IMG/VR virus record: IMGVR_UViG_3300043429_000249
Span: 4,024-68,023 of that record
DNA: 64,000 bases
Direction: 5' to 3' (one strand)
From: a virus
Part shown: piece after piece, positions 6,282 through 41,798 of the stretch
Layout of the letters: every line of letters starts with the position of its first letter
Numbering within the stretch: position 1 is the first letter of the stretch
The notes under the pieces: model-generated
Told to the model about the DNA's origin: nothing
Seen by the model: only the letters and a program-made list of their open reading frames with translations
Database searches by the model: none
Translations under genes and position numbers: made by a program

Positions 6282-6306
6282 CATCCCCCGAGCAAGGTGC
6301 AAGACT

Positions 6307-7536: not shown

Positions 7537-7546
7537 GGGTTCTATC

Positions 7547-9635: not shown

Positions 9636-9930
9636 GCCGCCTATATGGTGGGTAGATAAGTATACTGACTCTCAATGGGAAGCCTGTCTTAACCGCGCAA
9701 AGGAATACACCGACCTGATGATGGCGCGTAGGACAGAGACGGATGAAAGACAAAAGGCTTGGCACGAACTGCGGGATAGCATGACCAGCGAAGAAGCGGA
9801 CGCATACCTGTTTAACCTAACAAAGTTAGGGATGAGCATTAGGGAGATATCTGAGTCCTTTGGGCTGACCAGCGTGTCGCACCGTATACGTAGGCACAAG
9901 CAACGAATGAAGGAGCAAGCTGATGGATAA
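9625..9930 (+). CDS. hypothetical protein with possible C-terminal HTH
   Basis: LGMSIREISESFG. Confidence 0.6.
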   Translation: MVDKPPIWWVDKYTDSQWEACLNRAKEYTDLMMARRTETDERQKAWHELRDSMTSEEADAYLFNLTKLGMSIREISESFGLTSVSHRIRRHKQRMKEQADG

Positions 9931-10444
9931 TGAAGAGATCGAAGAACCGCAGGAGATGCACCCTGCCGTGCAGTTGCTGCTGGCGCGGATGGACAGCCAC
10001 CCAGATGAGTTTGTCGGTCGTGGCCTTCATCGCTGGGAAAGCGTGTATAGCGACATTAACCACGTCGCTTCGCCCCACGAGAAGAAGGCGATGAAGGCCA
10101 AGCTGCGTGAGATTAAGATGGGTCGCATCCATAAGGAGATCATGGGGCTTCTGCTAAGAGATGCGCCAAACGAGCCGGAAGAGGCGCAAGACGCGGGAGT
10201 CACGCTTGCCCGACAACACCTACAACAGCAGCAGGACTACCAACGCATATCGGCGCAGCTGGCGCAGATGCAGGTAGATGCGCAGGCACGAGCCTTGCAG
10301 CAGTTCCAGAACACGTTTCCGCGCAGCACGGACCTCTGGAACTCATCGTCAATCGGCACCACCATGCCATCCCGATACCCGACACCCGTAGTCGGTAAGG
10401 GATTAGTCGAAACAGCTATGGATACGTTTAGGAACAAAAAATGA
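9923..10444 (+). CDS. hypothetical protein (LLL.RMDSHP.EF family)
   Basis: VQLLLARMDSHPDEF; SD AAGGAG. Confidence 0.75.
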   Translation: MDNEEIEEPQEMHPAVQLLLARMDSHPDEFVGRGLHRWESVYSDINHVASPHEKKAMKAKLREIKMGRIHKEIMGLLLRDAPNEPEEAQDAGVTLARQHLQQQQDYQRISAQLAQMQVDAQARALQQFQNTFPRSTDLWNSSSIGTTMPSRYPTPVVGKGLVETAMDTFRNKK

Positions 10445-11040
10445 CCGAATATCAATTCACGAAAGACTGGTTTGGTTGGGCACCGCCCGTATGGGAGCAG
10501 CTTATTCCACACCTGCCGGGGGAACCGGGCAACCGCACCTTCATTGAGATCGGTTCCTTTGAGGGCCGCAGCATGGTCTGGACCGCTGAAAACATGATGC
10601 AGACGGGAGATGAAATCTTCTGCATCGACACATGGGAAGGCGGCGAGGAACACGGCGATCAAAATATGAGCGAGGTGGAGAAGCGGTTCGACCACAATTC
10701 CGCAATCGTCTACGGCAACCACGACATTTCGATCCTTAAACATAAGGGGACTTCCACCAGCTATCTGGCTAGGTTCATTGAAGGCGGGGAAGCAGCCGAC
10801 TTCATCTACATCGACGGGAGCCACATCGCCAAGGATGTGCTGACCGACGCCTGTATGGCTTGGGCGCTGCTCCGCCCCAAGGGTATGATGGTCTTTGACG
10901 ACTATATGTGGGGCAACCCGCGGGACATCCTGCACCGCCCCAAACCTGCAATCGACGCCTTCTGCAACATTTTCGCGGAAGAAGCGGAGATCGTCCACGT
11001 TGGCTATCAACTGGTCGTACGCAAGAAGGGAGAAGGGTAA
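10441..11040 (+). CDS. class I SAM-dependent methyltransferase (Methyltransf_24-like)
   Basis: IEIGSFEGRS, IDTW, DFIYIDGSH, GMMVFDDY. Confidence 0.9.
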   Translation: MTEYQFTKDWFGWAPPVWEQLIPHLPGEPGNRTFIEIGSFEGRSMVWTAENMMQTGDEIFCIDTWEGGEEHGDQNMSEVEKRFDHNSAIVYGNHDISILKHKGTSTSYLARFIEGGEAADFIYIDGSHIAKDVLTDACMAWALLRPKGMMVFDDYMWGNPRDILHRPKPAIDAFCNIFAEEAEIVHVGYQLVVRKKGEG

Positions 11041-11219
11041 TGGATACTGTGTACATCGTACTGATCGTTGGGTTGGCCGCTATCTCTGGGTTCTTTTTCG
11101 GGATGGCGTACAACTTCAAGGTTGTCGGACAGATCAAACACGAGAACGAGCGGCTCAACCACGAGCTGCATAGACTGACTGACCGCGATGCACGTGGTCG
11201 CTTCAAGGGAGGTAAGTAG
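11040..11219 (+). CDS. small membrane protein
   Basis: N-terminal TM helix, coiled coil, RDARGRF tail. Confidence 0.65.
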   Translation: MDTVYIVLIVGLAAISGFFFGMAYNFKVVGQIKHENERLNHELHRLTDRDARGRFKGGK

Positions 11220-11380
11220 TGGCAAAAGGTAAGGGCAAAGCAAAGACCGCTGTTGGTCAGGTTAAGATCGTTCCCAAGCGGGCACCGTTTCGCAAAACCT
11301 GCACCACCTGTGGTTCAAGCTGGCTGGGCGACCTGATCTACGATTGCGGCCATGACGCCGTGATTGAGCAGGACATCTGA
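11219..11380 (+). CDS. 53-aa basic Cys/His (Zn-binding?) protein (not in the ORF track)
   Basis: GTG start, SD GGAGG; CTTC...CGH. Confidence 0.55.
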   Translation: MAKGKGKAKTAVGQVKIVPKRAPFRKTCTTCGSSWLGDLIYDCGHDAVIEQDI

Positions 11381-11381
11381 C

Positions 11382-11567
11382 ATGCCGTTTGTATCGCGTA
11401 AAAGGGTCGAGTGGACGCCGGAAATGGAGCGGGAGCTTTGGAACCTGTGGACCTACGGCGTCCACAAAAACGAAATCGCTGAGCGCTTAGGTATGAGCGT
11501 AGCGGCAACCGAGCAGCGGTATTACCGCATGAAACGGCAGAAAGCGAAGGAGCAAGCCGGTGAATGA
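11382..11567 (+). CDS. GcrA-like HTH protein
   Basis: WTPEMERELWNLWTYGVHKNEIAERLG resembles the GcrA N-terminal domain. Confidence 0.6.
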   Translation: MPFVSRKRVEWTPEMERELWNLWTYGVHKNEIAERLGMSVAATEQRYYRMKRQKAKEQAGE

Positions 11568-12339
11568 CGAAATCAAGGTAAAACCTGTGGAGACTAAGCG
11601 ACCTAGCATTATGATCGCTACTCCCATGTACGGTGGTATGTGTACGGGGACCTATGTGCAGGGCTTGTTGATGACCATGCAGAAGATGCGTGAGATCGGC
11701 GTCAACGTGGCATGGTGCCAGATCATGAACGAAAGCCTGATTACCCGTGCGCGGAACGATCTGGTGCGCCTCTTTCTTGAGAGTGAGCACGACTACCTTA
11801 TGTTCATCGACGCTGACATTGGGTTCGACGGGGAGGCAGTCGCGCAGCTTATGCTGGCCGACAAGGACGTATGCTGTGGCATCTACCCCAAGAAGGAAGT
11901 GAACTGGGATAGCGTTAAGCGCGCTGCACAGACTAGCCAAGCAGACCTAGAGGACTACGCCGGGGCGTTTGTCTTTAACATGATCGGCGGTGCCCATCAG
12001 GAGACGGACGAGACAGGCTGCATCGAAGTGCGCCATGGCGGCACAGGCTTCATGCTCATCAAGCGGGGGGTGTTCGAGTTTCTGAAACCCTATGTGCCTA
12101 CCTACCGCGTGTCGTCATTTAAAGACGAGAGTGGCGAATACGTAAAACCACTCACCTATGAGTTCTTCGCTACCAGCATCGACAATAGCGGCGCGCTGCT
12201 GTCGGAAGATTATCACTTTTGCGAGCTGTTTCGCAAACATGGCGGACAAATCCATGCCCACCCATTTGTCCGCCTGACCCATACAGGGACCTATATCTTT
12301 GATGGGGACATTTTGAAGAGCGGTGGCAACCTAAAGTAA
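11560..12339 (+). CDS. GT-A fold glycosyltransferase-like protein
   Basis: IATPMYGG, ESLITRARN, FIDAD (DxD), GTGFMLI, SEDYHFC. Confidence 0.85.
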   Translation: MNDEIKVKPVETKRPSIMIATPMYGGMCTGTYVQGLLMTMQKMREIGVNVAWCQIMNESLITRARNDLVRLFLESEHDYLMFIDADIGFDGEAVAQLMLADKDVCCGIYPKKEVNWDSVKRAAQTSQADLEDYAGAFVFNMIGGAHQETDETGCIEVRHGGTGFMLIKRGVFEFLKPYVPTYRVSSFKDESGEYVKPLTYEFFATSIDNSGALLSEDYHFCELFRKHGGQIHAHPFVRLTHTGTYIFDGDILKSGGNLK

Positions 12340-12351
12340 GGAGCAAGTGAA

Positions 12352-12936
12352 ATGGCTAAGAAGAAATTGGGATACGGTGAAAAGGCAGCCCGCATCATGG
12401 AGATGCTTAACCAAGGGGTGCCAGCGAAGCAAATCCGCCGGGAGCTGGGCGTAAGCCCTGCGTATATCTACGCCCTTAAAAAGCAGATGATCCATGCGGA
12501 TACGCTGGAGCTAACCGAAGACATGAAGGAAACGCTGCACGTTATGTCGCAGGGTAAGGGTAAACCCAAGCCGGGGGAGTATCTCGTGGTTGAGGGTATG
12601 GTTAGTCCACAGGCAGCCTCCGGGCTAGTGTCGGCACCGCCGGTTACGGGCGTATCGGACCCCAATAACGTCAACGCTATCCTCAACGAGCGCGGTAAAC
12701 GGTACGGAACTTTCTGGGGGCATGCCCAAATTACCCAAGACCTTAAGGCGGTGATGAGCGAGTTCTGTAGGCAGCGCAATAAGTCTTTTGACGTGGATCA
12801 GCTTGAAGCCCTTGAGATGATCTTCCACAAAATCGGGCGCATCCTAAACGGCGACCCGGACTACGCTGATAGCTGGATTGATATTGCCGGATACGCTAAG
12901 CTGGTGGCTGATCGTCTCGAAGGGAAAGTCCGATAA
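12352..12936 (+). CDS. HTH plus DUF6378-like protein
   Basis: LNERGKRYG...HKIGRILNGDPDYADSWIDIAGY. Confidence 0.75.
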   Translation: MAKKKLGYGEKAARIMEMLNQGVPAKQIRRELGVSPAYIYALKKQMIHADTLELTEDMKETLHVMSQGKGKPKPGEYLVVEGMVSPQAASGLVSAPPVTGVSDPNNVNAILNERGKRYGTFWGHAQITQDLKAVMSEFCRQRNKSFDVDQLEALEMIFHKIGRILNGDPDYADSWIDIAGYAKLVADRLEGKVR

Positions 12937-20721: not shown

Positions 20722-20762
20722 ATGGCCTCCCAGTCTGCACCGCTGGGGGGCCATTTCCTTTT
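20722..20762. terminator. hairpin between the converging arms
   Basis: ATGGCCTCCCAG...CTGGGGGGCCAT followed by TTCCTTTT. Confidence 0.6.
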
Positions 20763-23700
20763 AGCGGCCTTCGTATTTTCGCTTAACTGCGTTGAAGGTG
20801 CGGTTAAACTCCTTATACACCTCGTTCATATCCGCATGATACTCCTCGATGGAGAGGTATTCGTCGTTGCGGTAAGCCTTGCTCATGTCTTTCAGCTGGT
20901 CCTTGGCTAGGGCATAGGCCTCCATGACTTCGGCGTCCGTCTTCACAGGGTACTTGCGTTCGTTGGCCTTAAAATCCCGGTCATCCCCGGTTTCCACCGC
21001 GTCCTTATAGGTCGGGTAAATCTGGTCCATGCCGACCGTATTGCGGTAGAAGTTATTCATCGGTGCATATTCACCGCCCTTACCCGCGATTTTCATCAGC
21101 TCCGGCATTTCACCCGACGCAATATCTGCACCGAAGGCAAACAAGCCGCCGCCGTACTGCTTAGCAAGATACTGATACCATTCCGGCTGCCGCGACAAAC
21201 CTCCAGCCACAGTCGTCGAACCGTTCGACATTGAGTTGACACCCCGGGCAAGCCACTTCCAAGCCTCGTTTGTGTTTTCACGGCCCATCTCGGAGCGCGG
21301 CATAGTCGTATACTTGTTGTCCCGGTAGATGGGGGAACCGAAGAAGCTGACGTTAGCCTCTGCATCGGTCAGCGGCTGTGCCGCATCGGGCAGAATGATG
21401 CTCTTGACCGAAGTCAGGAAGTCCTTGTCTGCCGAACCCTTCACCGGAAGAGCCATATTGCGGAACGCATCCATGGTGGTGACCGCTGCCTCCATAGGGG
21501 TGATGTCACCCTGCATCGCAGCCGCGATTTGTTCGCCAGTGTACTTTGCGAAACCCAGCGAAAAAGCTGTGGGGATAGCAACGTAGTCGTTAGTACCCGA
21601 ACCGTAGTAGACTACGACACGGCTTTGGCGGGTGATATCGTTCACATCGAATATGTTCTTGCGGCCATCCTCGTCATCGTCGTCGCTGCGGAAGGCGTTC
21701 CAAAGCTGGAGCAAAATGCCCAGCTTGATGGCTCCAAGGATCAGCTTCCGCGCATTGCGCGAGGTCATCCCCTGATTGATGAACTTACGCCCACCTTCGA
21801 CACCGGCACTAAAGAAGAAGAACCACGTATCCAGCACAGGTGCCCATTCACCACGACGCGTCAGGTTAAGCGAGGAGTCAAGTGCGAGGAGAGCAGCGCC
21901 TTCCTGACTAATGCCCGCATCCAGCGCAGCCCGGTAGGTAGCGAAGCGGGCCTGCATGTCGATAACCTGCGAGATGGTATCCATGAACTCCAGACCGGAG
22001 TTAGCCATAGCCAGAGCCGCCTTATCGGGACGGCCTTCCTGCATAGCCTTGATGGCTCCCAGTGCCTGATCGAAGGCTTGGATATGGTCCGCAGCGTTCA
22101 TAACCATGGATTGGCCGACAGCACCACCGTCCTTAAGGAACTGGTCGAACAGAAGCGTGGTTTCTTCCATCTCCTGCGTCGTCGATCCGGGCACGAGGGC
22201 GTTAACCGTCTGCGCCAACTTAGACGCAGTTGGGTCCTTACTGGTCATATATGCCCGGGTTACTGCCGCCTGTACCGGGCTGAACATATACTTGGCTGAT
22301 TGCGCAGCGATCTTTTTACCTTCGGCAGCGCCGCCCTTTACACCCTGTGCCGCAAGGTTTGTCAGGATAGCTTCTTGGAAGTCGCGCTGCCATGCAGTGC
22401 CAAGCAGGTAAGTCGGGTTGAACCGGGTCTTAAGCGACTTGATGCCGTTGCTGACATCTTGCACGCCCGGGATATGGACCGTCTTACCGAATACTTTCGT
22501 ATCAGTACCCGTGAAGAACGCACCCAACTCCTTTGGCGTCATATTGGAGAAGGCACGGTACAGCGCATTACCAGCATCGCTGTTTTGGAAGTCAAGGTAG
22601 AAAGTCTCTCCGTCCTTCTTCACCACAAAGGCACGGTCACCGACACGGCTACCGTCAGTAGCACGATCCTTCATCGCGGTTAGGGCTTCACCCGACAACA
22701 TGGTCGCACCCGGTGTCTTCTTTTCGGAGTATACCTTGACTACACCTTCGTGCGTCACCGGGTCTTCCAAAGCGTTGTCCAGAAGCTGCTGCGCCACGCG
22801 GTTGCGTTCGATACGGGCAATGGCATACTGCGCATCCGACATCAGGGTAAAGAGCGGGTTAGCAGGCATCGTCTCACGGCCCTTGGCCGTCAGATATTCA
22901 CGGATGCGAGTGCGGCCACCTTGGCGGCGGAAATCTTCACGCGCTTCCTGCATAGCCTTCGTGGGATCGCCATCTTCGTTCATGTCGCCCTCAAGGGCGA
23001 AACCCTTCATCGGCGTGTAAAACGGCTGCTCCTTGCGGGTACGGGTCCATTCTTCCTGCGAGATCATACCCGCTTTGACGCGCTCCTTGCCCATATAGTC
23101 CACCAGTGCATCGTGCAGCTTGGCGACCTTCTTGAGGTCGGGCAGGAGACCTTCGCGCAGGAAGTGGTCGATGACGGCATCCGCATCAGCGTTAGTCATA
23201 CCAGAACCGTCAGTAATCTGACCTTCGCTCCTTTTAAGGACCATCGCGTTACGATCCTTAGCCGCACGTGCCCACAGGTACATGCCGACATCCTTGGGAT
23301 CGAGACCAAGCTCTTTGATCTTGTCTTCCAACGGGTCGAGGAACCAGCGACGGAGGCTCATCTGGTTGCCGATCTTGCGGCTTTCCAGTAGAGCGAACTT
23401 GTTCGCTACGTTCATGTTATCGGGCAGCGAAGTCACACCATATACCGCAGCAAGCGCACGGGTATAGTCCGTCGCATCCTGATACTTGTAGTTCAGCTTA
23501 CGAAGCGCAGCGGACCCCATACGACGCACACGGCCTTGCAGGTCCGTGGCGAAGCCAACCGTGTCAATCAGCGGACGCTGTGGGCTGGCAGGCTGACCAC
23601 CGGGGATTGGGGGTGCCGGGATGCGTGAATAGAGCGGGCCGATAGACTCATCGACCATATTCTGAAGGGTCTGCGACCCCTTGTCTTCCCGCTGCGCAAA

Positions 23701-26700
23701 CTCACCATTGGCGATGGCTTCCATGACGGCATTTGCATCGCGCAGGTTTTGACTAAAGAAAAAGTCACGGATTGAGTTCAGGAACTTCTGGATGCGGGTG
23801 AAGACGTTCTTCTTGATCGGCAGCCTCTGCCGTTCTTTCATCCATGCACGGAACAGTTCCGCTACACGCTCTTCTTCACGGGTCGCTCTGCTTTCTTTAC
23901 TATAGGCAACGCGCACAACCGACCGAAGGGCGACGTCCTTATTGGCAACGCGCACAAGTGCCTGCCATTCTTGGTCCGTAAAGAAGCCGTGGTCCTTAAG
24001 GTAATGGATAAGCTCATGATACATGACGCCTTCCATTTCCGCCTGATTGCCCATAGCCATGCGGATGATGCTGTCCATGGGGTTATAGCTACCGCCCGCC
24101 TGACCCCCATTAAGGATGTCCTTAACGATGATGTTGATATCATTGAAGCCAAGTTTAGACAGGGCTTCACGTAGCTTGTTCCGTGCTTCCTTAACACTCT
24201 CCGCTTTTTCTTCGTAGGCTGCACGCTCTTCGGGCGTCATTAGCGACCGCATAGCCTGTTCAGCGTAGCGGTCCTTAGCCTTTTCCAGTTCTTCTTGGAT
24301 GCGTTCGGCGGAGGCATTCTTCTGTTCCGCCGCGTTAGTCAGCAACTTGTAAGCCTGTTCGCTGATCTGCGGATCGCGTTCGCCATCTTCATTGTACATG
24401 GCGTTTTCGATATCTTCCAAGACCGCATCATACGGATCAGCCTGCGCCTTCCGCGCACCTTCTTCCTGCTGGGCTAGGAGGATTTCCCGAATGTTGTTTG
24501 CTACTTCATCACGCTGATTTTCGCGCTGATTATCCAGCATTTCATCAAGCGCGGCCATGGCTTCGTCCAGCTTTTCAGCATTGGGGACGTCTTCCAGACG
24601 GGAGTTGATTTCAGCTACATCGTCTTCGTCGATAAGCCCATCTCGCTGATATTGCTTCATGAGCTTGCGAAGTTCTTTCATGTTCTCCGCGTTATATACC
24701 TCTTGGGTAGCATCATCGTACCGTGCGTCATGCTCCTGCATGTCCGGGTGTTCGTCGATTAGGTCTTCGACATCGACTTCCTCTTCCGGCGCAGGCTCTT
24801 CTTCAAACTGCGGCAGCGTGACGTCTTCTTCGACGGCAGGCTCTCCTTCTGCTACCGGCGCTTCTTCGGCTACCGGCGCTTCTTCGGCTACCGGCGCTTC
24901 TTCGGCTACCGGCGCTTCTTCGGCTACCGGCGCGGGTTGTGCAGCAGCTTCGCGTTCAGCCTGACGCTGGCCCGCTTCGGGAATCATGCCCTCGATTTCA
25001 GCCGCGTCACCGCGCAGGATAGCCATCTCCTGTTCGTCCGGCCCCACCCAGCCGTTCTTGTCGGCCAGTTCGATGAAGGCTTTGTACTTGTCGCGGATCG
25101 CGGGGTTATTGGCGATACGGTTGAAGGCCGTTTGGCGTTTGGTGTCTTGTTCCTGTTGCTGCTGCGCTGCTGCTGCCTCTTCAGCATCCAAACGCTTCTG
25201 GTATTCCCCTTCAGGACCGAACACACTTTCGGCAGCTTCAAAACCATAAGCACGGCTGGCTTCTTCACGGGTCATCGGTTCCAAACCGCGCCGTTTAAGG
25301 TCAGCGTTGATCTTATTGATCTTGTTCTTACCCTTGATTGCCGGGTCGTACAGCGTCGGCTCAATGATATTCATGCGGGCAACGGCAAGTTCGTTGTCGC
25401 GCAGTTCATTCACCTGCCCTGCGGTTGTCTCAAGGTCTGACTGCTGCCGCATCCAGTCACGGATAGTCGCGGTTTCTTCTGCGTTCGGCCTAAGGCCGTG
25501 CATGAACATCAGGTTTTCAAACGCACCAAGGTGGTCGGTAACCGGGGCTTGTAGCGTCTGCTGCAACAGGTCCATACGCAGTTCGCGTTCAGCCTGCGCC
25601 TCCTGCGCATTTTGATTGATCTCATCTACTACGCTAGTAGGTATAGGAGGAGTAGCAGTAGTCGTTGTTTGCGCGGGTTGTCCGGGGGCTGGAGCCGTCC
25701 CAGCGGGAGGCGCAGTCATAAAGTCCAAGAACTCGTCATGAACTTTCCGGGCTTCATCCAGCACCAGCATGCGGGCGATCTTGGTCTCTTCCGGCAGCTT
25801 GGCACGGTTCAGGGCACGGGTCTGCCCCTTAAGTAAGGTATCCGCCGCCTCGGTATCACCCGATGCCATCGCGCTCGTCAAACGACGGTTGATGCTGTTG
25901 ATGTATGTATTCAGCCCTTCATCAGGCTGCGTGTTACCCAATGACTGGGCCAGACGTTCGCCAATAGCCTGTCGGGAAAAGGTTTCCGGGATATTCAGGT
26001 TACGAGCAGTTTCATCCTGCACGCGCCGCGCTTCGATATCGGCAATGGGCATACGACGCAGCATGCCCTGCTCGTTACGGACAACTACATTGCCTTCGGC
26101 ATCGGGGGCACCGATAACATCAATGCGCTCACGCACAGTCTGCGTCGGATCATCCTGCTTCGCAGTCGCAATCGTGTAGGATGCGAGTGGAGGCTGGGCA
26201 GCTTGCTCCATAGCCTGTTGGCGGTTCTTTGCCGCGCGTTCGCCAAGGATGTTGGAAACCTCAAAGCCGCCACGGACCGTGGCACCGACGGCGCCGCCAA
26301 GCAGTGCGTTTTCAGTCACGCCTTCCATAGCAGCTTGCTGCGGGTTGTACGCCTGCTGTTCCAGCACGTTCTGTGCGAGCTGCGTGCCACCTTCCTGCAA
26401 CGCCTCCGGCGCAAAGCCTCGACCCACCAGACGGCCAGCCGCGGTAGCATCCAATGACGCAGCCGTACGGGCCAGCGTCTGCTTAACTGTTTCACGTGAA
26501 ACACGCCCTGCGGTCAGGTCGGTAAGGAGGCTATTAATTCGTTGCTGCGTCGCAGTGCGTGCAGCGGGAGGAAGGGCATCCACCATACGCCCTATGGGCA
26601 GCAGTTCAGTCAGTCCAATGGCACCGCCACCGAGCTGCACAAACTTACGTGTTGTCGGGTCAACCTTTTGGCCGGTTTGCTTTTCGAACTCGTCCATCTG

Positions 26701-27456
26701 CTGGCGAGCTTGCGTCGCACCCTGCCCGGTACCAAGGATAGCCTGCGCACCACGGGTGATAAACGGGGCGGCCTTGGTTACTGGAGCCAGACGACGTCCA
26801 GCTACTTCCGTAGCCACAAAAGGAAGGATGCTACCTAACCCGCCGCCAAACGCCTCGATATTGCGCTGGAGGGGGTCAAACTGGGCAGTCTCCGCCTGTT
26901 CCAGACCAAGAGCTTTTACAAGTCCTTTACCTGTAGCTTCCGACCGTTTGGCAAGTTCTTCACCCCGTGCACCACCAATACCCAAGGTACCCGGAGCCTG
27001 AAACAATCCCTCGATGGCACCGCGGGGAATAGAGGCCAGACCACCAGTGATGCGTTCCCCAAGGGTAGGGGCAGCAGCGCGCTTGCCCGCCTTCTGCATG
27101 TACTGGCGTTCTTGACGGATAAGGTCCAGCTTTTCAGCCGTGTCTTCCCGCAGCTTTTGACGCAGTTCCTCACGTGCAGGTGTACCGCCCAAGAACCGAC
27201 GCGCGGACTCCAAGAAGCCGCCAACACCTTCGGGAGCCTTACCCAGCTCCTTTTCACCCTTGGCAGCCCGGGCACGGAGGCGCTTCTCCTCTGCCGCCAA
27301 CTCGGTTTCGCGCTTCGCCACGTCGCTAGGTACGGCACGGGGAGCTTGTGTTCCACGTGAAACGATAGCCTTAAGATCGGCAGCAGTTGCTCCTGCGGGG
27401 GCTTCGATGGTGTACCGCTTGCCCCCAAGCTCATAAATGTATCGTTTCAAGGCCAT
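20761..27456 (-). CDS. giant internal virion / ejection protein (polyvalent-type; zincin HExxH, LPD38-like C-terminus)
   Basis: 2231 aa, last gene of the virion operon; YHELIHY; Gly/Ala-rich N-terminus. Confidence 0.75.
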   Translation of the reverse strand: MALKRYIYELGGKRYTIEAPAGATAADLKAIVSRGTQAPRAVPSDVAKRETELAAEEKRLRARAAKGEKELGKAPEGVGGFLESARRFLGGTPAREELRQKLREDTAEKLDLIRQERQYMQKAGKRAAAPTLGERITGGLASIPRGAIEGLFQAPGTLGIGGARGEELAKRSEATGKGLVKALGLEQAETAQFDPLQRNIEAFGGGLGSILPFVATEVAGRRLAPVTKAAPFITRGAQAILGTGQGATQARQQMDEFEKQTGQKVDPTTRKFVQLGGGAIGLTELLPIGRMVDALPPAARTATQQRINSLLTDLTAGRVSRETVKQTLARTAASLDATAAGRLVGRGFAPEALQEGGTQLAQNVLEQQAYNPQQAAMEGVTENALLGGAVGATVRGGFEVSNILGERAAKNRQQAMEQAAQPPLASYTIATAKQDDPTQTVRERIDVIGAPDAEGNVVVRNEQGMLRRMPIADIEARRVQDETARNLNIPETFSRQAIGERLAQSLGNTQPDEGLNTYINSINRRLTSAMASGDTEAADTLLKGQTRALNRAKLPEETKIARMLVLDEARKVHDEFLDFMTAPPAGTAPAPGQPAQTTTTATPPIPTSVVDEINQNAQEAQAERELRMDLLQQTLQAPVTDHLGAFENLMFMHGLRPNAEETATIRDWMRQQSDLETTAGQVNELRDNELAVARMNIIEPTLYDPAIKGKNKINKINADLKRRGLEPMTREEASRAYGFEAAESVFGPEGEYQKRLDAEEAAAAQQQQEQDTKRQTAFNRIANNPAIRDKYKAFIELADKNGWVGPDEQEMAILRGDAAEIEGMIPEAGQRQAEREAAAQPAPVAEEAPVAEEAPVAEEAPVAEEAPVAEGEPAVEEDVTLPQFEEEPAPEEEVDVEDLIDEHPDMQEHDARYDDATQEVYNAENMKELRKLMKQYQRDGLIDEDDVAEINSRLEDVPNAEKLDEAMAALDEMLDNQRENQRDEVANNIREILLAQQEEGARKAQADPYDAVLEDIENAMYNEDGERDPQISEQAYKLLTNAAEQKNASAERIQEELEKAKDRYAEQAMRSLMTPEERAAYEEKAESVKEARNKLREALSKLGFNDINIIVKDILNGGQAGGSYNPMDSIIRMAMGNQAEMEGVMYHELIHYLKDHGFFTDQEWQALVRVANKDVALRSVVRVAYSKESRATREEERVAELFRAWMKERQRLPIKKNVFTRIQKFLNSIRDFFFSQNLRDANAVMEAIANGEFAQREDKGSQTLQNMVDESIGPLYSRIPAPPIPGGQPASPQRPLIDTVGFATDLQGRVRRMGSAALRKLNYKYQDATDYTRALAAVYGVTSLPDNMNVANKFALLESRKIGNQMSLRRWFLDPLEDKIKELGLDPKDVGMYLWARAAKDRNAMVLKRSEGQITDGSGMTNADADAVIDHFLREGLLPDLKKVAKLHDALVDYMGKERVKAGMISQEEWTRTRKEQPFYTPMKGFALEGDMNEDGDPTKAMQEAREDFRRQGGRTRIREYLTAKGRETMPANPLFTLMSDAQYAIARIERNRVAQQLLDNALEDPVTHEGVVKVYSEKKTPGATMLSGEALTAMKDRATDGSRVGDRAFVVKKDGETFYLDFQNSDAGNALYRAFSNMTPKELGAFFTGTDTKVFGKTVHIPGVQDVSNGIKSLKTRFNPTYLLGTAWQRDFQEAILTNLAAQGVKGGAAEGKKIAAQSAKYMFSPVQAAVTRAYMTSKDPTASKLAQTVNALVPGSTTQEMEETTLLFDQFLKDGGAVGQSMVMNAADHIQAFDQALGAIKAMQEGRPDKAALAMANSGLEFMDTISQVIDMQARFATYRAALDAGISQEGAALLALDSSLNLTRRGEWAPVLDTWFFFFSAGVEGGRKFINQGMTSRNARKLILGAIKLGILLQLWNAFRSDDDDEDGRKNIFDVNDITRQSRVVVYYGSGTNDYVAIPTAFSLGFAKYTGEQIAAAMQGDITPMEAAVTTMDAFRNMALPVKGSADKDFLTSVKSIILPDAAQPLTDAEANVSFFGSPIYRDNKYTTMPRSEMGRENTNEAWKWLARGVNSMSNGSTTVAGGLSRQPEWYQYLAKQYGGGLFAFGADIASGEMPELMKIAGKGGEYAPMNNFYRNTVGMDQIYPTYKDAVETGDDRDFKANERKYPVKTDAEVMEAYALAKDQLKDMSKAYRNDEYLSIEEYHADMNEVYKEFNRTFNAVKRKYEGR
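24851..24932. repeat. 18-bp tandem repeat (APVAEE x ~4.5)
   Basis: GCTACCGGCGCTTCTTCG repeated. Confidence 0.9.
26488..26503. promoter_or_regulatory. parS: parS site (perfect bacterial consensus)
   Basis: TGTTTCACGTGAAACA; in frame as VSRET. Confidence 0.8.
27349..27364. promoter_or_regulatory. parS: parS site (variant)
   Basis: TGTTCCACGTGAAACG; in frame as VSRGT. Confidence 0.7.
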
Positions 27457-27474
27457 GACGTACCTTACTTAATC

Positions 27475-28803
27475 TTAGTCAGATTCGCTAATAATTCTTC
27501 CCTGATCTACGATGGCCTGCGAACTAGTCTTTCTGCGACCTTCAAGCCCGAACTCACGACGGTGGGCTTTTTTAGCGGGGATGTTTGCTTCGCTATATGG
27601 CAGTCCAAGCCTATCAAGATACGCTCTACGCACTGCTTGGGCTGACTGAACCGTAGTAGTCGCGTCCGTTAGCGCATCTTTAACCTTACCCTTAGCGGGC
27701 TTACCTGCACGAACCCAAGCACGCCGTGCCAAAGTCAACTTAGTGGTAGCCTCGTTTTCTTCCTTTTCGAGGCTCTTTATGTCCTTGATCGCCGTAGCTG
27801 TAAGCCGTTTAGGCCCCCCACCACTACCACCATCAGAGCGCAGGCCAGCGCGGTAGTTTTCGCCCGCCTCGTTAGCCTGAAACTTCCGCCAGTCGTAAGC
27901 ACGTTCTTTTTCAGCTTCCTCGCTGCGGAACGTACGGCCCGTCTCTTCTTCGTAGCCCTTAATGCCAAGGCCCTGCATTTCCAGAGCTTGTGTTGCGCGT
28001 TGCGCCGCACGGGTATTCTTACCCTGCTCCAGATCAAGGAGACCTTTCTGGATTTCACGCTCTTCGGCGCGACGGTCACGAGCACGTTCGGTCGCTGCAC
28101 CAAGCGCGGGTACCAACGCAGCGCCGATGTTTTGCAGCGCATACGGAGAGTTACCGGCCATCATACCAAAGCCAGCCTCAGCCATAAGCTGGGCTATATC
28201 CTTGCGCCGCTGATCCTTGCGGTACTCAGGGCTACGCCGACGGAGGTAGTCAGCTTCTGCTTCTTCCTCGTACTTGGTCTGCGGCGCACCAAAGAGCGCA
28301 TCACGGATAGCAAGGTTAGCCAGCGGGTCCTTATAGTTGTAGCCGTAATAGGTATCCGTATCACCACCTTTAGCAAACGCAACCAGACCGCCACCGGCAT
28401 AGCCGTCATCAAAGCCACCGTTACGCGACTCGTCGAACATATCATCCGGCAGAGGTAGCGAGGAAAGTCCGCCGCCAGCTGCGTAAGGAGGAACCATACC
28501 ACCTTCCGCCATACCAAGTCCGGCAGCTTCAGGCGCAGGCATAGTTGCGGCTTGCGGAGTAGCACCAAGACCTTGAGGGGCAACCGGCATCTGCGGCTGC
28601 GGACTTAAGAGTTGTTGCGCAACGGTCTGTTGGGGTACCTGCTCCTGCGCGGCAGCGGCACGCATACGCTTGATATGGTCAGCGGCGGCACTAGCAACGA
28701 GCACACCATACGGACCCAGCGCACCTATAGCAGCTGCTTGTGCGATCCTTGGGATATCGCCACCGAACTGTTCCGCGACTTCCTTATAGTTAAGGTCAAG
28801 CAT
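27475..28803 (-). CDS. internal virion / DNA ejection protein
   Basis: Gln/Ala-rich; four AxGG motifs; position in operon. Confidence 0.7.
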   Translation of the reverse strand: MLDLNYKEVAEQFGGDIPRIAQAAAIGALGPYGVLVASAAADHIKRMRAAAAQEQVPQQTVAQQLLSPQPQMPVAPQGLGATPQAATMPAPEAAGLGMAEGGMVPPYAAGGGLSSLPLPDDMFDESRNGGFDDGYAGGGLVAFAKGGDTDTYYGYNYKDPLANLAIRDALFGAPQTKYEEEAEADYLRRRSPEYRKDQRRKDIAQLMAEAGFGMMAGNSPYALQNIGAALVPALGAATERARDRRAEEREIQKGLLDLEQGKNTRAAQRATQALEMQGLGIKGYEEETGRTFRSEEAEKERAYDWRKFQANEAGENYRAGLRSDGGSGGGPKRLTATAIKDIKSLEKEENEATTKLTLARRAWVRAGKPAKGKVKDALTDATTTVQSAQAVRRAYLDRLGLPYSEANIPAKKAHRREFGLEGRRKTSSQAIVDQGRIISESD

Positions 28804-36464: not shown

Positions 36465-39400
36465 TTACGTTGGGATTTCTACCCAAACAACAGTATTGCC
36501 GTCCACTACCTGTACCCAGTTCCCACTTTGGGAATCGTTAATCGTTTGCCAGTTCGGCGTCTGAGTGTCGTCTATACCAGACCATCCAGCACTTTGCGAG
36601 TCATTAACACTCTGCCAGTCCGGTGTCTGGACATCGGTAACTTCCTGCCAGTTCGGTGTCTGAGCGTCGTTAATTGTCGCCCATACGCCAGCCTGTGCGT
36701 CATCGACTGGTACCCACATCGGGACCTGTGCATCGTTGATCGCCTGCCAGTTCGGTGTCTGTGCGTCGTCAACCCCGTTCCAGTTCGCTGTCTGGGCATC
36801 GTTGACAGGAATCCAGTTCGGGTCCTGTGCCGGAGTAATCGGGTTCCACTTGGGGATTTCAACAGTACCGACCTGCCCAGCAGCGGACACACCGAGAACG
36901 GTGAGGATAGCCCTGCCGCTAACAGTAACGGTGCCGACAGACGCCGCAGCCGAAACCCCGGAGACAACGACCATAGTGCCGGTATCAGCAGTGGCCGTAC
37001 CAATCGTACCCGTAGCGGCTACGCCAGTAACCTCAACCTGTTGGCCAATTACAACGTCTACGGTGCCGACGGTACCCGTAGCGGAAACACCTGTGACATC
37101 TACATCTGCACGAGCAGCTGTATCGACGGTACCAACCAGACCATCTGCGGCTACGCCCGTTACGCTGACGTTGGTATTATTCCGAACTTCGACTTCAAGC
37201 CCAGAGAACGGAACAACGGAGAAGCCAGAGAAGCCCAGCAGAGCTGTGTTGTCTACGTTCCCAACGGCCTCGCTGACGTCACCGATCTCCCCAGTGGCGG
37301 AGACACCAACAAGTTCGGTGTTGGCTTTAGCTTCGACCGTAGCAGTACCGACCGAGCCAGTAGCCGATACGCCGGTTACGTAGTATGAAGAGCGAGTCGT
37401 TACATCGCCTACAAAACCATTGGCTTCTACACCGGTAACCGTGAAATTCGTATCGGTGGTTACATCAGCGGTGCCGACAAGGCCGTTGGCCGAAACACCA
37501 GTGACTGAAACGTTAATCCGCTGGGGTGTCTCGACCCCAGAGAAGGGCACGGATGCGAAGGGCGAGAAGCCCAACACCATCGTGTTATCGACGTTCCCGA
37601 CGGCTTCGGTAACGTCACCGATCTCCCCAGTGGCGGAGACACCGGAGACAAACACCGTCTCGACGTTGGTGGTAGCAGTGCCAACAAGACCGCTAGCCGA
37701 AACACCGGTAACTTCGACGTTGGTGTTATTACGAACCGATTCTTCTACGCCCGCAAACGGAACAGCGGAGAAGGGCGAGAAGCCCAACACCATCGTATTA
37801 TCAATGTTGCCGACAGCCTCGGTTACATCTCCGATCTGCCCGGTGCCTACGACGCCTGTGAGTGTGGTGTTGGCTTTAGCTGAGGTATCTACTGTACCGA
37901 CTGCACCAGAAGCAGAGACCCCAGTAACTGCAACCTGCCTGCCGAGCGCGACAAAGACGGAACCAACAAGCCCCGAAGCGGAGACACCAGTTACGAGGAC
38001 GCTGATGCCCGTACCAACCTGAACGGTACCAAGTAGCCCGTTAGCAACCACGCCGGTCAGAGTGGTATTGGCTTTACCAGTTTCGGTGGTGTCCCCGATA
38101 GCACCAGTGGCAGCAACGCCAGTTACGCTTACATTGGTATTATCCCGCTGTTTGGTCTCGACCCCAGAGAAGGGCACGGATGCAAAGGGCGAGAAGCCCA
38201 GCACCATGGTGTTATCAACGTTCCCAACGGCTTCGCTGACATCACCAGTTTGCCCAGTGCCTTCAACACCTGTGGGCGTAGTGTTAGCTTGGCCGGAAGT
38301 AGCTACAGTACCGACGGCACCAGAGGCCGATACGCCAGTGACGTAGTAACCAAAACTGAACGATACCGTGCCAATCGCACCAGTAGCGAAAACGCCGGTT
38401 ACACTGGTACTTGCGCCAATACCGACCTGAACCGTGCCGACTGATCCATTTGCAAAGACGCCGTTGACTTCGGTATTGGCTTTAGCGGAAATAGCGACCG
38501 TGCCGACTGCACCTGTGGCGGATACGCCAGTTACGCTTACATTGGTATTATCCCGCTGTTTGGTTTCAACGCCGGAGAAGGGCACAGCTGCGAAGGGCGA
38601 GAAGCCCAGCACCATTGTGTTATCAACGTTCCCAACGGCTTCGGTAACGTCACCGATTTGTCCGGTGCCTTCAACACCTGTGGGCGTAGTGTTAGCCTTA
38701 GCAGAGATGGTTACGGTACCAACTGCACCAGAGGCCGATACGCCAGTGACGTAGTAGCTAAATCTGAACGCTACAGTGCCAATTGCACCGGTAGCGGAAA
38801 CACCGGTTACGGTTGTGTTGCTGCCAATACCAACCTGAACGGTACCTACTGACCCACTGGCGAAAACACCGCTGACCTCGGTATTGGCCTTGCCTGCGAT
38901 AGCGACCGTACCGACAGTGCCTGTGGCGGATACACCCGTGACGTTGGTGTTAGTATTGTTGCGTTGGCGCTCTTCCACACCGGAGAAGGGCACAGCTGCG
39001 AAGGGCGAGAAGCCCAACACCATGGTGTTATCAACGTTCCCAACGGCTTCGCTGACGTCACCGATCTGCCCAGTGCCTACTACACCCGTTAGCGTAGTGT
39101 TAGCTTTGGCAGCGACGGTTACGGTACCAACTGCACCCGACCCAGAGACGCCAGTGACGTAGTAGGACGAGCGGAAAGTTACCGTGCCAGTAAAGCCGGT
39201 GGCAGTGACACCATTTACGGTTGTGTTGGCCTTGCCCGATACGGCTACAGTACCGACCAACCCTGAAGCAGATACACCCGTAAGAGTGGTGTTAGCTTTA
39301 GCGGAAATAGCGACCGTGCCAACTGCACCGGAAGCAGCTACACCCGTGACGTTGGTATTAGTATTGTTGCGTTGGCGCTCTTCCACACCGGAGAACGGAA

Positions 39401-41798
39401 CCGCTGAGAAGGGCGAGAAGCCCAACACCATGGTGTTGTCGATATTACCGACGGCCTCGGTTACGTCTCCGATTTGCCCGGTGCCCGCTACCCCAGTGGC
39501 GGTGGTGTTAGCTTTGGCAGCGATGGTTACGGTGCCGACTGCACCCGACGCAGATACGCCAGTGACGTAGTAAGCAGACCGGGTAGCTACCGTACCGACT
39601 GCACCTGTGGCCGAAACACCTGTGACGTAGTAGGACGAGCGGAAAGTTACCGTGCCAGTAGAGCCGGTGGCAGTGACACCAGTAACAGCGACGTTGGCTT
39701 TGCCTGTCTCAGTAGTATCCCCGACAGAACCAACAGCCGAAACACCCGTGACGGAGTAGCTAAACCTAAACGATACCGTGCCGACTGCACCAGAAGCCGA
39801 AACACCTGTAAGGGCGGTATTAGCCTTGGCGGCGACAGCTACTGTACCAACTGCACCCGACGCAGATACGCCAGTGACGTAGTAAGCAGACCGGGTAGCT
39901 ACTGTGCCAACTGCCCCGGTGCCGGAAACCCCGGTAACGGCGACATTAGCTTTAGCGACGACCGTCTCGGCACCGATGCTGCCCGTACCTGCGACGCCAG
40001 TTACGGTAGTGTTAGCCTTAGCTACGACCGTCTCGGCACCAATGGTGCCCGTAGCGGAAACGCCCGTTACGCTGACGTTGGTGTTATCTCGCTGTTTGGT
40101 CTCTACACCGGAGAAGGGCACGGATGCGAAGGGCGAAAAGCCCAGCACCATCGTGTTATCGACGTTTCCGACAGCCTCACCGACGTCACCGATTTGCCCG
40201 GTGCCTACCACACCAGTTACACTTACGTTGGCTTTAGCAACGACCGTTTCGGCACCAGTGGTGCCTGTAGCGGACACGCCCGTGAGGGTGGCATTAGCCT
40301 TAGCTACGACCGTCTCGGCACCGGTGGTGCCTGTGGCGGATACGCCTGTAAGGGTGGTATTAGCTTTAGCTACGACCGTCTCGGCACCGGTGGTGCCTGT
40401 AGCGGACACGCCGGTTACGGTGACATTAGCCTTAGCTACGACTGTTTCGGCACCGGTGGTGCCTGTAGCGGCTACACCGGTTACGGCTGTGCGGGTGTTA
40501 AGGTATGCGGTAACCGTACCGACAGACCCAGTGGCCGATACGCCAGTGACGCTAACGGTAGCATTAGTTCTGGCGACTACGGTAACCGTACCGGTGGTGC
40601 CTGTAGCAGATACACCCGTAAGAGTGGTGTTAGCCTTAGCTACGACCGTCTCGGCACCGGTGGTGCCTGTGGCGGATACACCAGTTACGCTGACGTTGGT
40701 GTTATTGCGTGGTGCAACCTCGACGCCGGAGAAGGGTACAGCTGCAAAGGGCGAGAAGCCCAACACCATGGTGTTATCAACGTTCCCGACAGCCTCGGTT
40801 ACATCCCCGATCTGCCCAGTAGCAGAGACACCTGTAGCGGTTACGTTAGCTCTAGCTACGACCGTCTCGGCACCGGTGGTGCCTGTAGCGGATACGCCCG
40901 TGAGGGTGACGTTGGCTTTAGCAACGACCGTCTCGGCACCGGTGGTGCCTGTGGCAGATACACCTGTGAGGGTTGTGTTAGCCTTAGCTACGACCGTCTC
41001 GGCACCAATGGTACCTGTGGCAGAGACACCCGTAAGGGTTGCGTTAGCTTTAGCTACGACCGTCTCGGCACCAATGGTGCCTGTAGCTGAAACCCCGGTT
41101 ACAGCTGTGCTGGTGTTAAGGTATACAGTAACCGTACCAACCGAACCGGTAGCGGAAACGCCGGTAACGGTAACATTAGCCTTAGCTGCGACCGTCTCAG
41201 CACCAATGGTGCCCGTAGCGGAGACACCAGTAACAGTGGTGTTAGCCTTGGCGACTATAGTCTCTGTGCCGATGGACCCAGTAGCGAAAACACCAGTAAG
41301 GGTGACGTTGGCTTTAGCAACGACCGTTTCGGCACCAGTGGTGCCTGTAGCGGACACGCCCGTGAGGGTGGCATTAGCCTTAGCAACGACTGTTTCGGCA
41401 CCGGTGGTGCCTGTGGCGGATACGCCTGTAAGGGTGACGTTAGCCTTAGCTACGACCGTCTCGGCACCAATGGTGCCTGTGGCGGATACGCCTGTAAGGG
41501 TGACGTTAGCCTTGGCGACTATAGTCGCTGTACCAATGGACCCGGTAGCGGACACGCCCGTGGCGTTGACGGAGACAGAGACAGCCCCGGCAGTGATGAC
41601 CTCAACACCAGAAAACGGTACCGCGGAGAAGGGCGAGAAGCCCAACACCATGGTATTATCGACATTACCGACCTGCGTGGTAACAGTGCCGACAGAACCT
41701 GTAGCAGATACGCCAGTAGCGTTAACCGATACCGATACCGATCCACCGGCTTGGAGGTCAGCTGCGGCAGGTAGGAGTGGTTGGTATAACCAACTCAT
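36465..41798 (-). CDS. 1777-aa Thr/Gly/Val-rich repetitive fibre-like virion protein
   Basis: ~22-aa TGVSATG repeats, 10 GFSPF-type modules, 11-aa Trp repeats. Confidence 0.8.
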   Translation of the reverse strand: MSWLYQPLLPAAADLQAGGSVSVSVNATGVSATGSVGTVTTQVGNVDNTMVLGFSPFSAVPFSGVEVITAGAVSVSVNATGVSATGSIGTATIVAKANVTLTGVSATGTIGAETVVAKANVTLTGVSATGTTGAETVVAKANATLTGVSATGTTGAETVVAKANVTLTGVFATGSIGTETIVAKANTTVTGVSATGTIGAETVAAKANVTVTGVSATGSVGTVTVYLNTSTAVTGVSATGTIGAETVVAKANATLTGVSATGTIGAETVVAKANTTLTGVSATGTTGAETVVAKANVTLTGVSATGTTGAETVVARANVTATGVSATGQIGDVTEAVGNVDNTMVLGFSPFAAVPFSGVEVAPRNNTNVSVTGVSATGTTGAETVVAKANTTLTGVSATGTTGTVTVVARTNATVSVTGVSATGSVGTVTAYLNTRTAVTGVAATGTTGAETVVAKANVTVTGVSATGTTGAETVVAKANTTLTGVSATGTTGAETVVAKANATLTGVSATGTTGAETVVAKANVSVTGVVGTGQIGDVGEAVGNVDNTMVLGFSPFASVPFSGVETKQRDNTNVSVTGVSATGTIGAETVVAKANTTVTGVAGTGSIGAETVVAKANVAVTGVSGTGAVGTVATRSAYYVTGVSASGAVGTVAVAAKANTALTGVSASGAVGTVSFRFSYSVTGVSAVGSVGDTTETGKANVAVTGVTATGSTGTVTFRSSYYVTGVSATGAVGTVATRSAYYVTGVSASGAVGTVTIAAKANTTATGVAGTGQIGDVTEAVGNIDNTMVLGFSPFSAVPFSGVEERQRNNTNTNVTGVAASGAVGTVAISAKANTTLTGVSASGLVGTVAVSGKANTTVNGVTATGFTGTVTFRSSYYVTGVSGSGAVGTVTVAAKANTTLTGVVGTGQIGDVSEAVGNVDNTMVLGFSPFAAVPFSGVEERQRNNTNTNVTGVSATGTVGTVAIAGKANTEVSGVFASGSVGTVQVGIGSNTTVTGVSATGAIGTVAFRFSYYVTGVSASGAVGTVTISAKANTTPTGVEGTGQIGDVTEAVGNVDNTMVLGFSPFAAVPFSGVETKQRDNTNVSVTGVSATGAVGTVAISAKANTEVNGVFANGSVGTVQVGIGASTSVTGVFATGAIGTVSFSFGYYVTGVSASGAVGTVATSGQANTTPTGVEGTGQTGDVSEAVGNVDNTMVLGFSPFASVPFSGVETKQRDNTNVSVTGVAATGAIGDTTETGKANTTLTGVVANGLLGTVQVGTGISVLVTGVSASGLVGSVFVALGRQVAVTGVSASGAVGTVDTSAKANTTLTGVVGTGQIGDVTEAVGNIDNTMVLGFSPFSAVPFAGVEESVRNNTNVEVTGVSASGLVGTATTNVETVFVSGVSATGEIGDVTEAVGNVDNTMVLGFSPFASVPFSGVETPQRINVSVTGVSANGLVGTADVTTDTNFTVTGVEANGFVGDVTTRSSYYVTGVSATGSVGTATVEAKANTELVGVSATGEIGDVSEAVGNVDNTALLGFSGFSVVPFSGLEVEVRNNTNVSVTGVAADGLVGTVDTAARADVDVTGVSATGTVGTVDVVIGQQVEVTGVAATGTIGTATADTGTMVVVSGVSAAASVGTVTVSGRAILTVLGVSAAGQVGTVEIPKWNPITPAQDPNWIPVNDAQTANWNGVDDAQTPNWQAINDAQVPMWVPVDDAQAGVWATINDAQTPNWQEVTDVQTPDWQSVNDSQSAGWSGIDDTQTPNWQTINDSQSGNWVQVVDGNTVVWVEIPT

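What the first reader, a model, noticed from the sequence alone, without database searches (positions are those of the whole stretch)
26488..27364. Two host-type parS centromere sites hidden in the giant ejection-protein gene
Seen: perfect TGTTTCACGTGAAACA at 26488 (read as VSRET) and TGTTCCACGTGAAACG at 27349 (VSRGT), about 860 bp apart. Known: this is the widely conserved chromosomal parS bound by ParB, which recruits SMC in several bacteria and contacts PopZ and MipZ in Caulobacter. No ParA/ParB or integrase is visible in the window. One exact 16-mer by chance in 64 kb is already very unlikely, and two close together mimic native parS clusters. Inference: the phage borrows host ParB to position or segregate its DNA (carrier state or polar anchoring), or titrates ParB/MipZ to disturb host segregation and division.
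Basis: partly seen in the sequence, partly recalled or inferred. Interest (0 to 1): 0.8.

Follow-up and report, generated by a model that had tools for sequence, protein, structure and literature searches.

The report
Host-type parS sites in lytic phage
A complete 68-kb phage with no partition genes of its own has two copies of the bacterial chromosome "centromere" word (parS) written into one of its genes, so it most likely borrows the host's ParB protein, a trick already known from Bacillus phage phi29.

Summary
An exact TGTTTCACGTGAAACA lies at 26488-26503 and TGTTCCACGTGAAACG (one outer mismatch, perfect 14-bp core) at 27349-27364. Both sit in the same frame (V-S-R-E/G-T) of a 2231-aa LPD38 polyvalent (probable ejection) protein gene.

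The whole 68,023-bp record has no other site and no ParA, ParB or integrase. Chance is unlikely: about 2e-8 per genome, or about 0.005 over the whole scan. The codons used are rare.

The sites are lineage-specific:
- All 44 alignable homologues would need at least 5 base changes to encode site 1.
- 0 of 34 capsid-close relatives have any parS.

A sister clade supports function. Its representative shares 66% capsid identity with this phage. It keeps an exact parS inside another virion-protein gene, with all 15 specified bases invariant in 18 distinct sequences against about 54% identity in the flanks. All 5 complete genomes there have sites and 0 of 5 have ParB.

Host-type parS on a ParB-less virulent phage is already known from phi29 (five Spo0J sites). 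This scan has also noted it at least 15 times on other DNA.

Verdict: real, probably functional host-ParB loading sites, and a new member of a known kind. The host and the purpose are unknown.

The parts
26488..26503 (.). parS site 1: exact 16-bp palindrome TGTTTCACGTGAAACA, coding V-S-R-E-T (aa 319-323) on the minus strand
   Evidence: Codons TCA (7.6% of Ser) and ACA (13% of Thr) are rare, and P(nucleotides | peptide) is 1.2e-4. The invariant E322 is kept while variable neighbours changed.
27349..27364 (.). parS site 2: TGTTCCACGTGAAACG, one mismatch at outer position 16, perfect 14-bp core, coding V-S-R-G-T (aa 32-36)
   Evidence: GGA is 6.5% of Gly codons, and P(nucleotides | peptide) is 4.5e-5. 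It lies in the hypervariable N-terminal stretch of the protein family.
20761..27456 (-). Carrier gene: 2231-aa polyvalent protein (LPD38 domain at aa 1938-2115, weak metalloprotease match at aa 1079-1163), last gene of the minus-strand virion module and a probable packaged or ejected protein
   Evidence: 46 homologues were found, most of them carrying PF18857. The ejection role is inferred by analogy with phi24B gp47 (passage read).

Best explanation
The two palindromes are genuine loading sites for the host's own chromosomal ParB, written into tolerant stretches of the giant virion-protein gene of a virulent-type podovirus that has no partition genes. Once the phage DNA is in the cell, host ParB-CTP dimers would load at the two sites, close as clamps and spread. 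Each phage genome would then become a partition complex that the host ParA/ParB machinery positions and hands to daughter cells like a chromosome origin. The most likely benefit is survival of a stalled or delayed infection (carrier state). phi29 gains the same benefit when host Spo0J drags its genome into the prespore. Shown: sequence identity to the consensus, improbability by chance, rare codons, absence of a phage ParB, nucleotide-level conservation of such a site in a sister clade, and the phi29 precedent in print. Inferred: that the unknown host has a ParB of this specificity, that it binds, and what the phage gains.
For: One site is exact and the other has a perfect 14-bp core. A chance pair is expected about 2e-8 times per genome.

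The codons are rare and the peptides unexpected: VSRET is expected 0.02 times and VSRGT 0.03 times per proteome. This genome otherwise avoids palindromes strongly, with 14 of 64 hexamer palindromes at 0 copies.

No ParB_N, CbiA/ParA or integrase was found in six frames, and none among the 84 ORFs scanned.

Empirical control in IMG/VR:
- The parS pattern hit at least 119 loci (capped). 83 carry the perfect palindrome and only 5 carry the A or G variants.
- 21 of 119 loci have two or more sites within 2 kb.
- The reversed pattern hit 20 loci in all, 2 of them perfect palindromes and 0 clustered.

ParB_N was found in only 3 of 50 parS-bearing records tested, and in 2 of 17 that are at least 90% complete.

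Sister clade (G028 shares 66% capsid and 50% terminase identity with this phage):
- 23 of 80 loci have an exact parS within 1.2 kb of the terminase gene.
- In 21 of these the site lies in the SLT-domain gene after the terminase.
- All 15 specified bases are identical in 18 distinct sequences. Flank identity is 0.54-0.55 and flank third-position identity is 0.42. Only the degenerate position varies (12 T, 6 C), although that change swaps Ser for Pro.
- 5 of 5 complete genomes have 1-2 sites and 0 of 5 have ParB_N.

Precedent: phi29 has five parS sites used through host Spo0J (passages read). My scan of phi29 finds 4 exact sites, 3 of them inside genes.
Against: The sites are not conserved in this lineage.
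- All 44 alignable homologues of the giant protein need at least 5 base changes to encode site 1.
- 9 of 10 IMG/VR records carrying a homologue have no parS at up to 2 mismatches.
- 0 of 34 capsid-close relatives (86-98% capsid identity) have one.
- 0 of 5 cultured relatives have a site at up to 1 mismatch.

There is therefore no direct sign of purifying selection on these two sites. No DNA of a close relative of this gene could be obtained.

The host is unknown, so a cognate ParB is assumed and not shown. Site 2 deviates at position 16. No binding or phenotype data exist. What a lytic phage of a probably non-sporulating host gains is unknown.
Confidence: 0.6

Rival explanations
1. ParB sink or host takeover. 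The sites bind host ParB, but the benefit is titration. As the phage replicates, hundreds of parS copies pull ParB (and partners such as SMC, or MipZ in alphaproteobacteria) off the chromosome origin, which blocks segregation and division to the phage's benefit.
For: The sequence evidence for ParB binding is the same as above. The integrative element SGI1 carries two parS mimics of its helper plasmid and no ParAB of its own. Its replication raises parS copy number and destabilises the helper (abstract read). Only 1-2 sites per genome occur, at varying places in related phages. This fits a role that does not depend on position.
Against: Nothing here separates titration from partition. The host is unknown, so MipZ or SMC coupling cannot be assessed. 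phi29, the only phage case in print that I found, uses the sites for segregation.
Confidence: 0.17
2. The palindromes are read by some other protein, such as a phage DNA-binding protein or a host factor that is not ParB, and only resemble parS.
For: The phage encodes small HTH proteins (window 11364-11567 and 12352-12936, weak Pfam matches). It clearly uses palindromic words of its own.
Against: The phage's own repeated palindromes are different words that lie between early genes. The match here is to all 16 and to 15 of 16 positions of a consensus used across bacteria. In the sister clade the only variable base is the one that is degenerate in parS. phi29-like phages, the known class, turn up in the same IMG/VR scan: 4 of 5 small records tested carry the protein-primed polymerase family PF03175.
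Confidence: 0.08
3. Chance or neutral by-product. The two words arose without selection and do nothing.
For: They are unique to this phage among all relatives tested. The scan read about 250,000 windows, so single exact sites are expected by chance in some of them (1.3e-4 per genome).
Against: A pair within 1 kb is expected about 0.005 times in the whole scan. At least 5-6 base changes from the nearest homologous peptides all go towards the palindrome and use rare codons. The IMG/VR control shows exact perfect palindromes at 83 or more for parS against 2 for the reversed word.
Confidence: 0.1

Closest known systems
Host-type parS (Spo0J-binding) sites of virulent Bacillus phages phi29 and Nf (Meijer et al. 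2005, as summarised in PMC2731898; passages read)
   Same: A virulent phage without ParA or ParB carries the canonical 16-mer in a few copies, mostly inside protein-coding genes. phi29 has 4 exact sites, 3 of them intragenic. They are read by the host's chromosomal ParB.
   Different: phi29 is a 19-kb protein-primed phage of a spore former and uses the sites with Spo0A boxes for prespore entrapment. This is an unrelated 68-kb podovirus whose cultured relatives infect non-spore-forming aquatic bacteria. Spo0A boxes are not clearly enriched, at 14 against 8.2 expected. Both sites sit 861 bp apart in one gene. Binding is untested.
SGI1 parS mimics of IncC helper plasmids (PMC10954446, abstract read)
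   Same: A mobile element with no ParAB carries two copies of another replicon's parS and uses or jams that replicon's ParB.
   Different: SGI1 is an integrative mobilizable island and not a phage. It mimics a plasmid-type parS and not the chromosomal one. That case is shown experimentally.
Chromosomal parS clusters near oriC (ParABS of most bacteria; recalled knowledge and listings)
   Same: The 16-bp word is identical, it occurs in small clusters, and it is often inside genes.
   Different: Here the word is on a viral genome that has no ParB, ParA or oriC context.
Self-contained ParABS of plasmid prophages such as P1 and N15 (recalled), and phage-encoded orphan ParB/KorB-like systems noted earlier in this scan
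   Same: Centromere-like palindromes occur on a phage genome.
   Different: Those phages encode their own ParB and use their own site words. This phage encodes none and uses the host chromosomal word.

Membership tests
Canonical chromosomal parS site | 16-bp inverted repeat matching TGTTNCACGTGAAACA | tested here: met
   Site 1 has 0 mismatches. Site 2 has 1 mismatch at outer position 16, and its 14-bp core is perfect.
Canonical chromosomal parS site | Specific binding and CTP-dependent loading of a chromosomal ParB | not testable with these tools
   No binding assay is available, and the host and its ParB are unknown.
Canonical chromosomal parS site | Nucleotides conserved beyond what the coded peptide requires | tested here: inconclusive
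   At these two sites no relative keeps the peptide or the word. In the sister clade the test is met, with 15 of 15 specified bases invariant in 18 distinct sequences against flank identity of 0.54.
phi29-type borrowed host parS on a virulent phage | Phage lacks its own ParB and ParA and has no lysogeny genes | tested here: met
   No ParB_N, CbiA or Phage_integrase was found in six frames, and none in the Pfam scan of 84 ORFs over the whole genome.
phi29-type borrowed host parS on a virulent phage | Several host-type sites, commonly inside genes | tested here: met
   There are two sites in one gene. phi29 was scanned for comparison.
phi29-type borrowed host parS on a virulent phage | Spore-forming host and Spo0A boxes that suppress the lytic cycle | tested here: inconclusive
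   The host is unknown. TGTCGAA and its complement occur 14 times against 8.2 expected. Cultured relatives infect non-spore-formers.
Self-encoded phage or plasmid ParABS | A ParB (and usually a ParA) gene next to its own parS | tested here: not met
   No such genes occur anywhere in the 68,023-bp record.

The most novel reading that the evidence does not exclude
Borrowed host parS is not a sporulation trick peculiar to phi29. It is a widespread, selected cis-element of virulent phages of non-sporulating aquatic bacteria. Whole clades of about 60-kb podoviruses keep 1-2 exact sites under nucleotide-level selection with no ParB of their own, and lineages such as this one re-invent them inside virion genes. 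The phages use the host ParB-CTP clamp for something still unknown, such as carrier-state inheritance, positioning of phage DNA, or jamming of host segregation and division.
Probability: 0.45. Interest if true: 0.7.

Novelty: new member of a known kind. Interest (0 to 1): 0.5.

Why it matters
phi29 showed in 2005 that a virulent phage can ride the host's chromosome-partition machinery, but the idea has stayed tied to sporulation. This case is an unrelated phage whose relatives infect non-spore-forming water bacteria, and it carries the same word. A sister clade conserves the word base for base, and more than a hundred ParB-less viral contigs carry it far above a matched control. If ParB binding is confirmed, it would point to a general, unexplored interface between lytic phages and the ParB-CTP/ParA/SMC system. 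It would also give a simple handle, two 16-mers that can be recoded synonymously, to ask what lytic phages gain from it.

Tried and rejected
1. Chance: rejected on the pair statistics and on the IMG/VR reversed-word control.

2. A phage ParB, ParA or integrase in the part outside the window: none found.

3. A repeated protein motif or internal duplication: the flanks of the two sites are unrelated.

4. A conserved peptide that happens to spell parS: homologues have other residues, such as RITQEA, RVTKEV and KLVPEA.

5. The sites as one of the phage's own operator families: the repeated words are different and lie between early genes.

6. DNA of close relatives of the giant gene was sought through several routes.
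- Single-protein and alignment scans of viral contigs found nothing closer than 53% identity.
- Both metagenome scans gave one locus at 49%.
- Genome contigs gave none.
- Capsid-close phages and MAG-binned contigs lack the gene.
- A search for shorter proteins found nothing closer than 51%.

7. Host assignment failed. There are no tRNAs. The DUF2201 protein has no close bacterial relative. Capsid relatives are binned with many unrelated phyla, which I read as mis-binning.

8. Spo0A-box enrichment, as in phi29: not clear.

9. Literature: six searches found no natural host-type parS on a phage other than the phi29 family. The phi29 lead came from earlier notes of this scan, and I then checked it.
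Full report
THE OBSERVATION

The window has TGTTTCACGTGAAACA at 26488-26503 and TGTTCCACGTGAAACG at 27349-27364. The first matches the consensus TGTTNCACGTGAAACA exactly. The second has one mismatch at the outermost position, so both keep a perfect 14-bp core.

Both lie in one minus-strand ORF, 20761..27456, of 2231 aa. They are in the same reading frame, as R-V-S-R-E-T (aa 318-323) and I-V-S-R-G-T (aa 31-36).

The window is bases 4024-68023 of a 68,023-bp virus record that CheckV rates 100% complete. The whole record has no third site at up to one mismatch.

IS IT CHANCE?

A first-order Markov model of this genome expects 1.3e-4 exact sites and 5.3e-3 sites at up to one mismatch. An exact site with a second site within 1 kb is expected about 2e-8 times per genome. 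Multiplied by some 250,000 windows that is still about 0.005.

The codons are unusual for this phage. TCA is 7.6% of Ser codons, GGA 6.5% of Gly and ACA 13% of Thr. The probability of the observed bases given the peptides is 1.2e-4 and 4.5e-5. The peptides themselves are expected 0.02 and 0.03 times in the proteome.

The genome otherwise avoids palindromes strongly. 14 of the 64 six-base palindromes have no copy at all. A perfect 16-base palindrome therefore stands out.

WHAT CARRIES THE SITES

The gene product has an LPD38 domain (PF18857, aa 1938-2115), weak PHROG matches to very large phage proteins and a weak metalloprotease match. It is a "polyvalent" virion protein. A related LPD38 protein, gp47 of phage phi24B, is abundant in virions and was proposed to be an ejection protein (passage read).

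The phage has family A DNA polymerase, a DUF927 primase-helicase, terminase, portal, SU10-type adaptors and a Mu-gpT-like capsid protein. Its nearest cultured relatives are aquatic podoviruses:
- Planktothrix and Synechococcus phages (73% capsid identity).
- Pelagibacter phage HTVC023P.
- Phage DSL-LC04.
- Roseobacter phages CRP-901 and CRP-902.
- Caulobacter phage GB2A.

A Pfam scan of 84 ORFs over the whole genome, including the 4 kb outside the window, found no ParB, no ParA-type ATPase and no integrase. Six-frame searches for ParB_N, CbiA and Phage_integrase also found none.

RELATIVES OF THE GENE

A protein search found 46 homologues of the N-terminal 450 residues, the best at 73% identity.
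- At site 1 none keeps the peptide. The closest read RITQEA and RVTKEV, and most read KLVPEA.
- All 44 alignable homologues would need at least 5 base changes to spell parS.
- The invariant Glu322 is kept in this phage while the variable neighbours changed.
- Site 2 sits in a hypervariable stretch.
- Of the 11 IMG/VR loci with a homologue, I scanned 10 whole records. Nine have no parS at up to two mismatches.
- Five cultured relatives have none at up to one mismatch.

RELATIVES OF THE PHAGE

The capsid protein has at least 599 IMG/VR relatives. Of the best 80 (86-98% identity) I scanned the 34 on contigs of 10 kb or more. 0 of 34 have a parS at up to two mismatches.

The closest genome-wide relative (capsid 97%, DNA polymerase 71%) lacks this giant gene altogether. 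The gene is therefore a swapped cassette.

The two sites are thus a novelty of this lineage. Further attempts to get DNA of closer relatives of the gene failed.

EVIDENCE FROM ELSEWHERE THAT SUCH SITES ARE FUNCTIONAL

- 83 carry the perfect palindrome and 33 the C variant. Only 5 carry the A or G variants.
- 21 of 119 have two or more sites within 2 kb.
- The same word read backwards hit 20 loci in the whole collection. Two are perfect palindromes and none is clustered.

Second, I handed 50 of the parS loci (the longer contigs) to a six-frame ParB_N search. Only 3 of 50 records matched, and 2 of the 17 that are at least 90% complete. Several ParB-less records have many sites. Seven of the 19 other records tested have a Terminase_6C match.

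Four of five small records tested carry the protein-primed polymerase of phi29-like phages. This serves as an internal positive control for the known class.

Third, one of the parS-bearing records, G028 (62,136 bp, terminal repeats, complete), turned out to be a relative of this phage. It shares 66% capsid, 50% terminase, 38% portal and 50-57% adaptor identity. It has two exact intergenic sites, upstream of the terminase gene and downstream of the portal gene.

Among 80 IMG/VR loci with terminases 79-91% identical to G028's (G028's own locus is one of the 80), 23 have an exact parS within 1.2 kb of the terminase gene. In 21 of them the site lies about 430-650 bp past the terminase stop. That is in the linker after the SLT transglycosylase domain of a large virion-type gene.
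- Over 18 distinct sequences, all 15 specified bases are identical.
- The 45-nt flanks are 0.54-0.55 identical, and flank third codon positions 0.42.
- The only base that varies is the one that is degenerate in parS (12 T, 6 C), although that change swaps Ser for Pro.

This is selection on the DNA word and not on the peptide.

Of the 22 longest records of this clade, 12 have a site at up to one mismatch, including 5 of 5 complete ones. 0 of those 5 encode ParB_N.

WHAT IS KNOWN

Earlier notes of this scan pointed me to phi29. I checked the claim. PMC2731898 states that the phi29 genome contains five parS sites for host Spo0J, and that Spo0J is involved in segregating the phage genome into the prespore. 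It cites Meijer et al. 2005 (passages read).

My own scan of phi29 finds four exact TGTTCCACGTGAAACA. Three are inside genes 10, 15 and 17, and one is just after gene 16. A fifth site has three mismatches.

A second analogue is the island SGI1. It carries two mimics of its helper plasmid's parS, has no ParAB, and both stabilises itself and destabilises the helper (abstract read).

Six literature searches found no other natural host-type parS on a phage. Supplements were not seen. This scan has already noted ParB-less phages with host-type parS at least 15 times on other DNA. I did not check those notes.

READING

The sites are real and not chance. They are most likely loading sites for the host's chromosomal ParB. 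I put this at about 0.75 across the partition and titration readings together.

I favour hitch-hiking on the partition machinery (0.6 including the general ParB-loading claim), because that is what the one studied case does. The varying positions of sites in related phages also argue for a role that does not depend on position.

Titration of ParB and its partners is the main rival (0.17). Another reader protein (0.08) and a neutral accident (0.1) remain possible.

Against a strong claim for this phage:
- The two sites are young and unshared.
- The host is unknown. Related contigs are binned with many unrelated phyla.
- Nothing shows binding.

This is a new member of a known kind. The wider pattern, seen most clearly in the sister clade, is the more interesting result.

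Noticed in passing
whole genome (window 1-64000 plus 4 kb upstream): Six-base palindromes are avoided to an extreme degree. 14 of 64 have 0 copies (AAGCTT, AGATCT, ATCGAT, ATGCAT, CGATCG, CGGCCG, CTCGAG, CTGCAG, GAGCTC, GCCGGC, GGATCC, GGGCCC, TCGCGA, TCTAGA), against Markov expectations of 1-30. Several more have one copy, for example GTCGAC at 1 against 28.8. CACGTG is not depleted, at 10 against 11.1. This suggests heavy restriction pressure.
   Followed up: partly
window 291, 1937, 3293, 6195, 61109, 61815, 61988, 62509, 62795, 63389, 63855; genome 40, 285, 1381, 2415: The palindrome CCTAACATGTTAGG (core CTAACATGTTAG, 15 copies, 0 expected) lies between or at the edges of early genes on both sides of the record's ends. 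Several copies are followed by hairpin-plus-T-run sequences or by ribosome-binding sites. It is probably the phage's own early operator or promoter word.
   Followed up: partly
window 63817-63902 and genome 1-86: An 86-bp direct repeat links the left end of the record to a place 98 bp from its right end. IMG/VR classes the record as linear.
   Followed up: partly
window 39016, 39424, 40762: The palindrome AACACCATGGTGTT occurs three times inside the 1777-aa gene (36465-41798, minus strand).
   Followed up: no
L145 (G010:C1:1-16000): A 96-kb record with terminal repeats has a distant homologue of the giant protein. It carries 13 parS sites, 9 of them exact, at 1285-12436 among small early-type genes (HTH, VWA, AAA), several exactly at gene boundaries. 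It has no ParB_N. A 169-kb record (G040) has about 14 such sites, and a 35-kb tailed phage (G029) has three exact sites about 520-590 bp apart.
   Followed up: partly
L301, L317 and 19 more loci: A sister clade of about 60-kb podoviruses keeps an exact parS in the linker after the SLT transglycosylase domain of the gene between terminase and portal. All 15 specified bases are invariant in 18 distinct sequences.
   Followed up: yes
window 20761-28803 against L251-L253 (G061): The closest genome-wide relative (capsid 97%, DNA polymerase 71%, synteny kept) has no homologue of the 2231-aa gene or of the 442-aa gene next to it. The ejection-protein module is exchanged as a cassette.
   Followed up: partly
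L343-L386: Contigs with capsid genes 66-96% identical to this phage's are binned into MAGs of many unrelated phyla (Actinomycetota, Chloroflexota, Bacteroidota, Cyanobacteria, several Proteobacteria, even an archaeon). This is most likely mis-binning of an abundant freshwater and marine phage group.
   Followed up: no
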